DNA of 586 nt from a phage. The position numbers and the translations under genes were made by a program. Position 1 is the first letter of the stretch, and each line of letters opens with the position of its first letter. The stretch lies in sequence record AF056276.1; one strand, 5' to 3'. This document shows positions 1-586 of this stretch, piece after piece. Under the pieces are notes generated by a model that had not been told where the DNA came from, searched no databases, and worked only from the letters and a program-made list of their open reading frames with translations.

Positions 1-60
1 GCTCNTCTTTGGGCGGCCATGTCAACTCNNTNGGACNCNACACCATGTNCGANAAANTGG
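1..60. other. Low-quality base-call region at the read start (9 ambiguous N positions). Sequence and reading frame here are unreliable.
   Basis: N calls at positions 5, 29, 30, 32, 37, 39, 49, 53 and 57. A cluster like this at the 5' end is typical of the start of a Sanger-type read. Confidence 0.8.
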
Positions 61-455
61 AACAGATGGGGTTGCATGCTCGCTCCTACTTAATGGATAA
101 GAGTCGTGGAGATGTTCGTGAAACAATGCGTGATTTGCTCGTTGAAGCAAAACCTAAAGCAGAACGTATCTTGTCCGAACTGCGTGTACCGATTGCATAT
201 GTGAAAGGTATCAAGAAGAACGATAACGATGATGTTCGTAACTTCGTGATTCAGACTAACATTCGTTTCCATCAGTCAGGTATTCCGTGGCAGGAAATTG
301 AAAGCAACTTATATCGTTTGCATCAAGTTCTCGAACAGTATATCTTCGGTGTACTAGGAACTGGTGAGCCTGATATGATTACTGTATCAGATAAAGACCG
401 CCTAGCAGCACATGGATTTGATACGGTTACATCATTCAGGAATATGAAAAGATGA
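3..455 (+). CDS. Hypothetical protein, probably 5'-partial. The frame is open from the window edge to TGA at 453-455, and the true start is either upstream of the window or at one of the internal ATGs (45, 66, 93).
   Basis: Seen in sequence: an uninterrupted reading frame of about 150 codons ending at TGA 453-455. Arginine codons are strongly biased to CGT (8 of 12), consistent with genuine coding sequence. The track's apparent start at 9 is a TTG inside the N-rich region and is not credible, and none of the internal ATGs has a convincing Shine-Dalgarno motif. I recognise no conserved catalytic or binding motif in the translation. Indels in the low-quality first 60 nt could shift the frame there. 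Confidence 0.7.
   Translation, partial: XSLGGHVNXXGXXTMXXKXEQMGLHARSYLMDKSRGDVRETMRDLLVEAKPKAERILSELRVPIAYVKGIKKNDNDDVRNFVIQTNIRFHQSGIPWQEIESNLYRLHQVLEQYIFGVLGTGEPDMITVSDKDRLAAHGFDTVTSFRNMKR
438..442 (+). promoter_or_regulatory. Shine-Dalgarno-like ribosome-binding site for the downstream CDS, embedded in the 3' end of the upstream CDS.
   Basis: AGGAA at 438-442, followed by a 9-nt purine-rich spacer (tatgaaaag) before ATG 452-454. The spacing is within the usual range for bacterial translation initiation. Confidence 0.4.
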
Positions 456-586
456 TAAAAAACTTTATTAGTTCCCTATGGCAAGGTAAGTGGTATATCC
501 TGGGAGCAGGTCTAGCGATAGGCATCGGATTCGGTGCTTATCACTTAGTTAATAANGTTGAGACTCTAGCAGGTGATCTTGCAGTA
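452..586 (+). CDS. Hypothetical small membrane-anchored protein, N-terminal 45 codons only (3'-partial, runs off the window). It has a predicted single N-terminal transmembrane helix with a glycine-zipper-like motif.
   Basis: Seen in sequence: ATG at 452-454 overlaps the upstream stop (ATGA), with AGGAA at 438-442 nine nt upstream. The translation is MIKNFISSLWQGKWYILGAGLAIGIGFGAYHLVN(K/N)VETLAGDLAV, open to the window end. Residues 14-33 are hydrophobic with a G20xxxG24xxxG28 spacing, and K3 and K13 precede the helix, which by the positive-inside rule suggests an N-in orientation. The N at 556 leaves codon 35 ambiguous (Lys or Asn). Confidence 0.6.
   Translation, partial: MIKNFISSLWQGKWYILGAGLAIGIGFGAYHLVNXVETLAGDLAV

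What the first reader, a model, noticed from the sequence alone, without database searches (positions are those of the whole stretch)
491..550. Downstream gene opens with a glycine-zipper transmembrane helix, a candidate holin, spanin-like or other small membrane-anchored protein
Residues 14-33 (WYILGAGLAIGIGFGAYHLV) form a hydrophobic segment of about 20 residues with GxxxGxxxG spacing, after a short basic N-terminus and before a polar, possibly helical stretch (VETLAGDLAV). Small phage proteins with this architecture include lysis proteins (holins, type II signal-anchor i-spanins), superinfection-exclusion or immunity proteins, and membrane toxins. Only 45 codons are visible, so function is open. 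Glycine-zipper helices often drive oligomerisation or pore formation, which makes it worth following up.
Basis: partly seen in the sequence, partly recalled or inferred. Interest (0 to 1): 0.55.

Follow-up and report, generated by a model that had tools for sequence, protein, structure and literature searches.

The report
Phage BF23 inner-membrane spanin anchor
The hydrophobic, glycine-rich segment is real, but it is the membrane anchor of an already annotated lysis protein, the inner-membrane spanin of the T5-like phage BF23, which helps break the host's outer membrane at the end of infection.

Summary
An ORF starts at ATG 452, and its residues 14-33 (bases 491-550) read WYILGAGLAIGIGFGAYHLV, with glycines at 18, 20, 24, 26 and 28.

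The window is a raw, N-containing read of Escherichia phage BF23. It matches the published genome apart from the N calls and one C/G difference at base 65. The ORF is the first 45 codons of BF23_00048, a 147-aa protein already annotated "I-spanin".

The full protein matches PHROG 739, "Rz-like spanin" (E 9e-37). The tested T4 i-spanin PseT.3 falls in the same family. The next gene overlaps it by 70 bp and encodes a lipoprotein with an ITGC lipobox (PHROG 812, the family of T4 PseT.2). A T-type holin and an M15 endolysin lie 1.8 kb downstream. Kongari et al. 2018 already describe a "T5 family" of spanins with this same segment.

Holin, toxin, exclusion protein and cleaved signal peptide are not supported.

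One small point is left over. The glycine zipper is nearly invariant and under purifying selection in the T5/EPS7 clade. It is absent from all 32 distant relatives, and the helix is weakly hydrophobic. In lambda Rz the anchor can be replaced by an artificial one.

The finding is ordinary and of low interest.

The parts
1..455 (+). 3' part of the upstream gene, the homologue of BF23_00049 / T5p046 (232 aa, function unknown). Its TGA stop at 453-455 overlaps the spanin start. Bases 1 to about 60 are poor-quality read.
   Evidence: PHROG 4243, E 6e-114. No Pfam, NCBIfam, PDB or PADLOC hit.
438..441 (+). AGGA, a likely Shine-Dalgarno element 10 nt upstream of the ATG
   Evidence: Read from the sequence. 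This is inference only.
452..586 (+). First 45 codons of the i-spanin gene (BF23_00048, 147 aa in full). The gene runs off the window end.
   Evidence: The fragment alone hits PHROG 739 at E 1.2e-3, and the full protein at 9.2e-37.
452..490 (+). Short basic N-terminal tail (MIKNFISSLWQGK, K3 and K13, no acidic residue), inferred to be cytoplasmic
   Evidence: W10 and K13 are invariant in 62 clade clusters. The rest of the tail is variable, with pN/pS 0.90.
491..550 (+). N-terminal membrane anchor (signal-anchor helix) WYILGAGLAIGIGFGAYHLV, with a glycine zipper at G18/G20/G24/G26/G28
551..586 (+). Start of the periplasmic helical (coiled-coil) domain, NKVETLAGDLAV...
   Evidence: The AF2 secondary structure shows a helix over residues 2-99, at low confidence. 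SpaninDB coiled-coil calls are residues 31-73 in SPC35 and 33-75 in EPS7 (PMC6139136 supplement).

Best explanation
Bases 452-586 encode the N-terminus of the inner-membrane subunit (i-spanin) of the two-component spanin of phage BF23, a Tequintavirus (T5-like). Residues 14-33 form its uncleaved N-terminal signal-anchor helix.

Inferred mechanism, taken from the lambda Rz/Rz1 and T4 PseT.3/PseT.2 systems:
- The short basic tail stays in the cytoplasm and the helix anchors the protein in the inner membrane.
- The long helical periplasmic domain reaches across the periplasm. Its conserved C-terminal part (AAKPGLV...C126...C134) binds the outer-membrane lipoprotein encoded by the overlapping downstream gene.
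- After the T-type holin and the M15 endolysin have removed the peptidoglycan, the freed complexes collapse and fuse the inner and outer membranes, which releases the progeny.

Shown here: the identity of the gene, family membership, the lipoprotein partner, the gene neighbourhood, and the selection on the helix.

Inferred only: topology, complex formation and fusion.

The glycine zipper is a feature of this clade's anchor. Its most probable role is tight helix-helix packing of the anchors within the spanin oligomer. It is not a pore.
For: The window matches BF23 (OR083247.1) at every base from about 64 on, apart from the N calls and one C/G difference at 65. The ORF is annotated I-spanin there.

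The full protein hits PHROG 739 'Rz-like spanin' at E 9.2e-37. T4 PseT.3 hits the same PHROG at 1.3e-37, and T4 PseT.2 hits the partner's PHROG 812 at 5e-42. Direct BLASTP against T4 gives E 5e-5 for the i-spanin and 2e-6 for the o-spanin. The T4 pair complements lambda Rz/Rz1 amber mutants (PMC6139136).

The partner gene overlaps by 70 bp and reads MFNWKLGILLAATITITGC|AE. It has a lipobox, an Ala at +2, and four further cysteines. The partner with its lipobox is kept in the Klebsiella and Pectobacterium relatives.

C126 and C134 of the i-spanin are invariant. The holin (PF11031, E 2e-112) and the M15 endolysin lie 1.8 kb downstream.

All 32 distant representatives carry an N-terminal hydrophobic segment. 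The T5 family of spanins, with this exact TMD sequence and the 70-bp overlap, is catalogued in Kongari 2018.
Against: No experiment on the T5 or BF23 spanins turned up in the searchable literature.

The helix is only marginally hydrophobic.

There is no Pfam hit, including to the lambda Rz family. The AF2 model has low confidence, with mean pLDDT 51.

The spanin genes sit in a different predicted transcription unit from the holin and endolysin.
Confidence: 0.93

Rival explanations
1. The glycine-zipper helix has a sequence-specific job beyond anchoring. It might drive TMD-TMD oligomerisation of i-spanins, or supply the helix flexibility needed for lipid mixing at the fusion step, as proposed for glycines in viral fusion-protein TMDs. 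This refines the spanin reading rather than replacing it.
For: The TMD is the most conserved region across 62 clade clusters, with mean major-allele frequency 0.973. G18, G20, G24, G26 and G28 are kept in 59-62 of 62 clusters, and the exceptions are mostly Ser. TMD pN/pS is 0.21, against 0.31 for the coiled-coil region, and glycine codons change synonymously. In the 60%-identical relative P0062, 15 of 20 TMD residues are identical against 37 of 67 periplasmic residues.
Against: None of 32 distant family representatives has GxxxGxxxG, and they average 2 Gly. T4 PseT.3, Klebsiella and My1 lack the zipper. The lambda Rz TMD can be swapped for an artificial TMD with full function (PMC5295617). The clade is fairly shallow, so part of the conservation may reflect relatedness.
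Confidence: 0.25
2. The weakly hydrophobic Gly/Ala-rich helix is a SAR-like (signal-anchor-release) domain that can leave the bilayer when the membrane is de-energised.
For: KD is 1.55 and the simple Hessa sum is +3.4 kcal/mol. That is less hydrophobic than the phi21 R21 and P1 Lyz SAR domains, whose sequences I recalled from memory. 42% of the segment is Gly or Ala (it has no Ser or Thr).
Against: A spanin that left the inner membrane could not bridge or fuse the two membranes. Other family members have strongly hydrophobic anchors, with KD 2.0-2.7. The aromatic belt (W14, Y15 ... Y30, H31) is typical of a stable TM helix. There is no experimental hint of release.
Confidence: 0.04
3. It is a holin, or another pore-forming or toxic small membrane protein, or a superinfection-exclusion or immunity protein.
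For: A single N-terminal TMD followed by a large periplasmic domain is also the architecture of the T4-type holin T. Glycine zippers do occur in pore formers.
Against: The phage carries a bona fide T-type holin next to its endolysin (PF11031, E 2e-112). This protein hits only spanin PHROGs. It has no PADLOC hit below E 0.05. It is paired with an overlapping lipoprotein gene in every relative examined.
Confidence: 0.02
4. The hydrophobic segment is a cleaved Sec signal peptide of a secreted periplasmic protein.
For: It has a basic N-terminus followed by a hydrophobic stretch. An A44-V-A46 motif lies downstream.
Against: The hydrophobic stretch is 20 residues long, whereas signal-peptide cores are typically 7-15. 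The AVA motif lies 11-13 residues past the end of the stretch and is not kept in the Klebsiella (SLQSL) or My1 (LSVAN) homologues. The homologous T4 and lambda i-spanins are described as TMD-anchored. No SignalP-type predictor was available.
Confidence: 0.02

Closest known systems
T5-family two-component spanin (T5p044/T5p043, and the EPS7, SPC35, Stitch, AKFV33, DT57C and FFH1 pairs) in the SpaninDataBase of Kongari et al. 2018 (PMC6139136)
   Same: It is the same gene. The protein is 85-98% identical. The TMD is identical or nearly so: EPS7 has WQGKWYILGAGLAIGIGFGAYHLVNKVETLAGDLAV. The 70-bp overlapped architecture and the 117-aa o-spanin partner are the same.
   Different: Nothing material differs. 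In BF23 and this window the gene abuts the upstream PHROG-4243 gene through an ATGA overlap. T5 has an HNH endonuclease gene (T5p045) inserted between the two.
Phage T4 PseT.3 (i-spanin) / PseT.2 (o-spanin)
   Same: The PHROGs are the same: 739 and 812. BLASTP similarity is detectable at E 5e-5 and 2e-6, with a shared KPGLV motif in the i-spanin and a C..YRQ.L.E..C motif in the o-spanin. Both systems pair with a T-type holin, and in both the spanin genes sit away from the holin and endolysin. The T4 pair is experimentally equivalent to lambda Rz/Rz1.
   Different: T4's genes are 'separated' rather than overlapped. PseT.3 is shorter (117 aa), has no periplasmic cysteines, and has an ordinary TMD (LLLLVIAFGGTSIIL) with no glycine zipper. 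Identity is only about 24-28%.
Phage lambda Rz / Rz1
   Same: [quoted passage not shown]
   Different: No sequence relationship is detectable; there is no hit to the Pfam Rz family. Lambda has the embedded gene architecture. The Rz TMD is strongly hydrophobic (KD 2.63, no Gly) and has been shown to be replaceable by an artificial TMD.
SAR (signal-anchor-release) domains of phi21 R21 and P1 Lyz
   Different: SAR domains belong to endolysins and pinholins and must leave the membrane to act. A spanin must stay anchored. Release was not tested here.

Membership tests
Two-component spanin, i-spanin subunit (T5 / T4-PseT.3 family, PHROG 739) | Sequence match to a spanin family that contains an experimentally validated member | tested here: met
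   PHROG 739 at E 9.2e-37 for the full BF23 protein and 1.2e-3 for the 45-aa window fragment. T4 PseT.3 hits the same PHROG at E 1.3e-37. BLASTP against PseT.3 gives E 5e-5. T4 complementation of lambda Rz/Rz1 is reported in PMC6139136.
Two-component spanin, i-spanin subunit (T5 / T4-PseT.3 family, PHROG 739) | A single N-terminal hydrophobic transmembrane segment | tested here: met
   Residues 14-33, KD19 1.55, which is marginal. It is the only such segment in the 147 aa. All 32 distant representatives have an N-terminal hydrophobic segment. No dedicated TM predictor was available.
Two-component spanin, i-spanin subunit (T5 / T4-PseT.3 family, PHROG 739) | Type II topology (N-in, C-out) with the anchor uncleaved | tested here: inconclusive
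   The charge bias is +2 on the N side against 0 on the C side. The invariant C-terminal cysteines and the lipoprotein partner imply a periplasmic C-domain. No conserved AXA site exists. All of this is indirect. It needs PhoA/LacZ fusions or a topology predictor.
Two-component spanin, i-spanin subunit (T5 / T4-PseT.3 family, PHROG 739) | Predominantly alpha-helical, coiled-coil periplasmic domain with a linker | tested here: met
   AF2 secondary structure gives helix 2-99, loop 100-108 and helix 109-127, but mean pLDDT is only 51. SpaninDB coiled-coil calls for the orthologues are residues 31-73 and 33-75. The only Pfam and NCBIfam hits are sub-threshold matches to coiled-coil or bitopic proteins.
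Two-component spanin, i-spanin subunit (T5 / T4-PseT.3 family, PHROG 739) | A cognate o-spanin gene embedded, overlapping or adjacent, encoding an outer-membrane lipoprotein (lipobox plus Cys, no Asp at +2) | tested here: met
   BF23_00047 overlaps by 70 bp in another frame. It has the lipobox ITGC, Cys19 and Ala at +2. It hits PHROG 812 at E 8.8e-29. The partner is conserved in the Klebsiella (ASGC) and My1 (LLGC) relatives. A clade member's partner carries a precomputed PF26831 Phage_T4_Spanin hit. This gene lies outside the window.
Two-component spanin, i-spanin subunit (T5 / T4-PseT.3 family, PHROG 739) | Periplasmic cysteine(s) available for intermolecular disulfides | tested here: met
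   C126 and C134 are invariant in 21 aligned homologues. The mature o-spanin has four further Cys. The rule comes from PMC6139136.
Two-component spanin, i-spanin subunit (T5 / T4-PseT.3 family, PHROG 739) | Required for outer-membrane disruption; complements lambda Rz/Rz1 amber mutants | not testable with these tools
   No experimental report on the T5 or BF23 spanins was found.
Lambda Rz sequence family (Pfam Phage_lysis / Rz) | Profile match above the gathering score | tested here: not met
   No Pfam family scored above E 0.01, and none was Rz-related. It works like Rz but is not a sequence member of that family.
Holin (T4 T-type or other) | Match to a holin family, and being the phage's holin next to the endolysin | tested here: not met
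   There are no holin hits. The T-type holin is a separate gene, BF23_00044, with PF11031 at E 2.2e-112.
Glycine-zipper membrane helix (GxxxGxxxG) | At least three Gly at i, i+4, i+8 within a TM helix, conserved among homologues | tested here: met
   The motif is present (G20/G24/G28, plus G18 and G26). It is kept in 59-62 of 62 clade clusters, but in 0 of 32 distant family representatives. Self-association was not tested.
SAR (signal-anchor-release) domain | A weakly hydrophobic Gly/Ala/Ser/Thr-rich N-terminal TMD that exits the membrane on de-energisation | tested here: inconclusive
   The composition is compatible: KD 1.55 and 42% G+A+S+T. Release is not testable here, and it is at odds with spanin function.

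The most novel reading that the evidence does not exclude
In the T5/EPS7 clade the i-spanin anchor is not a passive stake. Its near-invariant, weakly hydrophobic glycine-zipper helix would take part in function, either by clustering spanin complexes through TMD-TMD packing or by making the inner-membrane leaflet easier to fuse. That would contrast with lambda Rz, whose anchor is fully replaceable.
Probability: 0.2. Interest if true: 0.4.

Novelty: already known. Interest (0 to 1): 0.12.

Why it matters
It matters little beyond correct annotation. The gene is already named I-spanin in the BF23 GenBank record, and its family was described in 2018.

The one point a lysis specialist might take up is the anchor helix of this clade. 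It is unusually glycine-rich, weakly hydrophobic and tightly conserved, whereas the lambda anchor is known to be interchangeable. A TMD swap or a Gly-to-Leu experiment in T5 or BF23 would show cheaply whether spanin anchors can contribute to membrane fusion.

Tried and rejected
- **Pfam, NCBIfam, PDB sequence search and PADLOC on the full i-spanin.** These gave only sub-threshold hits to coiled-coil or bitopic proteins (Med21, FtsL, CorA-like). They add nothing beyond the architecture.
- **Local Pfam on four o-spanins.** No hits. A precomputed PF26831 Phage_T4_Spanin hit does exist for one clade member, so the local copy probably lacks that model.
- **AlphaFold2 with a 22-sequence alignment.** Mean pLDDT was 51 and pTM 0.16. 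I used only its secondary structure and ran no fold search, because a low-confidence model gives meaningless matches.
- **Rfam on both strands of the window.** Nothing found.
- **Literature searches** for spanin plus glycine zipper or GxxxG, and for T5 or BF23 spanin experiments. Nothing relevant turned up. Two early calls failed because 'T5' is too short to be a search term.
- **First T4 fetch.** It covered the wrong region. The second found pseT.2 and pseT.3.
- **Small ORFs on the minus strand and in other frames** (436-525 minus strand, 490-552 plus strand). These are short mechanical ORFs with no support.

Full report
**What the window is.** The 586 bases match Escherichia phage BF23 (OR083247.1, 23017-23563, minus strand) at 98.9% over 40-586. 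In a direct alignment every base from about 64 onward is identical, apart from the N calls and one C/G difference at 65. The first ~60 bases are a garbled, N-rich version of the same BF23 sequence with a 12-nt gap. The window therefore looks like a raw single-pass read of BF23 DNA. A further 435 phage records match at 80-97% identity; nearly all are T5-like Escherichia and Salmonella phages.

**The observation.** An ORF opens at ATG 452, in an ATGA overlap with the stop of the upstream gene, and AGGA lies 10 nt upstream. It reads MIKNFISSLWQGKWYILGAGLAIGIGFGAYHLVNXVETLAGDLAV. Residues 14-33 map exactly to bases 491-550. Glycines stand at 18, 20, 24, 26 and 28, so GxxxGxxxG is present. The tail ahead of it has two Lys and no acidic residue.

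The segment is only marginally hydrophobic. Its best 19-mer Kyte-Doolittle mean is 1.55, against 2.63 for the lambda Rz anchor.

It is not a chance feature:
- 64 of 20,000 nucleotide shuffles gave an open frame with an equally hydrophobic stretch.
- In 77,730 six-frame residues from four related loci, the only hydrophobic GxxxGxxxG segments are the orthologues of this one.

**What the gene is.** In BF23 the ORF continues to 147 aa and is annotated "I-spanin" (BF23_00048). The next gene, BF23_00047, is annotated "O-spanin" and overlaps it by 70 bp in another frame.
- The i-spanin hits PHROG 739 "Rz-like spanin" at E 9.2e-37. The 45-aa fragment in the window alone reaches 1.2e-3.
- The partner hits PHROG 812 at 8.8e-29. 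It begins MFNWKLGILLAATITITGC-AE, which is a lipoprotein signal with a lipobox, Cys19 and Ala at +2, and it has four more cysteines.
- Downstream come dnk, a Clp-like protease gene, a predicted terminator and a strong promoter. After those sit a T-type holin (PF11031, E 2e-112) and an M15-family peptidase endolysin.
- The same layout holds in T5, in a Klebsiella relative, in Pectobacterium phage My1 and in a metagenomic contig.

**Link to tested spanins.** T4 PseT.3 and PseT.2 fall in the same two PHROGs (E 1.3e-37 and 5e-42). They are also detectable by direct BLASTP: E 5e-5 for the i-spanin, sharing a KPGLV motif, and E 2e-6 for the o-spanin, sharing a C..YRQ.L.E..C motif.

Kongari et al. 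2018 showed that the T4 pair replaces lambda Rz/Rz1 (PMC6139136). The same paper describes a "T5 family" of nine spanin pairs. Seven overlap by 70 bp. Two, phiR201 and Shivani, were split apart by a homing-endonuclease insertion. Its supplement lists the EPS7 i-spanin with this exact anchor sequence. The finding is therefore a rediscovery of a catalogued gene.

**Architecture of the full protein.**
- AF2 with 22 homologues gave a low-confidence model (pLDDT 51). Its secondary structure is one long helix over residues 2-99, a loop at 100-108 (the invariant AAKPGLV region), a second helix over 109-127 and a disordered tail.
- This fits the usual i-spanin plan of TMD, first coiled coil, linker and second coiled coil. 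It also fits SpaninDB's coiled-coil calls for the orthologues.
- C126 and C134 are invariant across 21 homologues, down to 36% identity. That agrees with the disulfide rule for spanins.
- There is no Pfam hit, so the protein works like Rz without belonging to the lambda Rz sequence family.

**The glycine zipper.** Across 62 clusters of the T5/EPS7 clade the anchor is the most conserved part of the protein, with mean major-allele frequency 0.973. The five glycines are kept in 59-62 of the 62 clusters, and the exceptions are mostly Ser.

Across seven orthologous genes pN/pS differs by region:

| Region | Residues | pN/pS |
|---|---|---|
| N-terminal tail | 2-13 | 0.90 |
| Anchor helix | 14-33 | 0.21 |
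| Coiled-coil region | 34-100 | 0.31 |
| C-terminal region | 101-134 | 0.18 |

The glycine codons vary synonymously, so the amino-acid sequence of the helix is under selection.

An exhaustive HMMER search of 1.84 billion representative proteins found 33 family members. I examined 32 distant family representatives. All have an N-terminal hydrophobic segment, but none has GxxxGxxxG. They average 2 glycines, and most are much more hydrophobic, with KD 2.0-2.7. T4 PseT.3 also lacks the motif.

In lambda, replacing the Rz TMD with an artificial one leaves lysis intact, and the authors concluded that it is only an anchor (PMC5295617). The zipper is therefore a clade-specific trait of an anchor that is generic across the family. 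A role in helix packing is plausible but untested. A pore role has no support.

**Rivals.**
- Holin: ruled out in practice, because the phage has its own T-type holin and this protein has only spanin hits.
- Defence, exclusion or toxin: no PADLOC hit, and the gene is always paired with the lipoprotein gene.
- Cleaved signal peptide: the hydrophobic core is 20 residues long. The only AXA motif (A44-V-A46) lies 11-13 residues past the core and is not conserved.
- SAR-like release: the composition would allow it, but it conflicts with the need to stay anchored.

**Verdict.** The feature is already known and of low interest. What remains is a cheap, testable question about the conserved glycine-rich anchor.

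Noticed in passing
window 1-65: The first ~60 bases are poor-quality read. There are 11 N calls, a 12-nt gap relative to BF23, and many miscalls. Megablast matches only from base 40. Base 65 is C where BF23 has G, which would change Glu to Gln in the upstream protein; this may be a miscall or a real variant.
   Followed up: partly
window 1-455; L001 4718-5416: The upstream gene (232 aa, BF23_00049 / T5p046, PHROG 4243, E 6e-114) has no Pfam, NCBIfam, PDB or PADLOC hit. Some records label the gene next to the i-spanin 'DNA polymerase III subunit epsilon' (JLBYU43, Kpn02), which nothing here supports. It ends in an ATGA overlap with the spanin start, which suggests translational coupling.
   Followed up: partly
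L004 4004-4501 (T5) versus L001 5413 (BF23): T5 carries an HNH endonuclease gene (T5p045) between the PHROG-4243 gene and the i-spanin. BF23 and this window lack it, and the two genes abut directly.
   Followed up: no
L005 1007-1602 (phiR2-01): An endonuclease gene starts inside the 3' end of the i-spanin gene and separates it from the o-spanin. This is the GIY-YIG homing-endonuclease insertion that Kongari 2018 describe for phiR201 and Shivani. The i-spanin tail is changed there, to ...CKDEHKNN.
   Followed up: partly
L002 4375-4704 (Klebsiella phage vB_Kpn_K7_rec21): The annotated 'Rz-like spanin' CDS at 4549-4704 is a truncated call. The full ORF starts at 4375 (MRNWKYGLLLSAAIIASGC...) and only that start supplies the lipoprotein signal. 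This is the start-codon misannotation problem noted by Kongari 2018.
   Followed up: partly
L001 4624-7635: The consensus scan suggests one transcription unit holding the PHROG-4243 gene, the i-spanin, the o-spanin, dnk and the Clp-like protease gene. It ends at a strong terminator (7513-7537). A near-consensus promoter (7607-7635) follows for the holin and endolysin. The spanins therefore appear to be transcribed apart from the other lysis genes, as in T4.
   Followed up: partly
L001 7661-8727; L011 5133-5782: The T5-like lysis set shares the T-type holin family (PF11031) and both spanin PHROGs with T4, but uses an M15 peptidase endolysin rather than a T4-type lysozyme.
   Followed up: partly
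L006 595-1044, L007 5001-5450, L008, L009: In EPS7-type relatives the i-spanin is called two codons longer (149 aa, MDLIQKLL...) and overlaps the upstream gene by 44 nt rather than 4. The N-terminal tail is the least constrained region, with pN/pS 0.90.
   Followed up: partly
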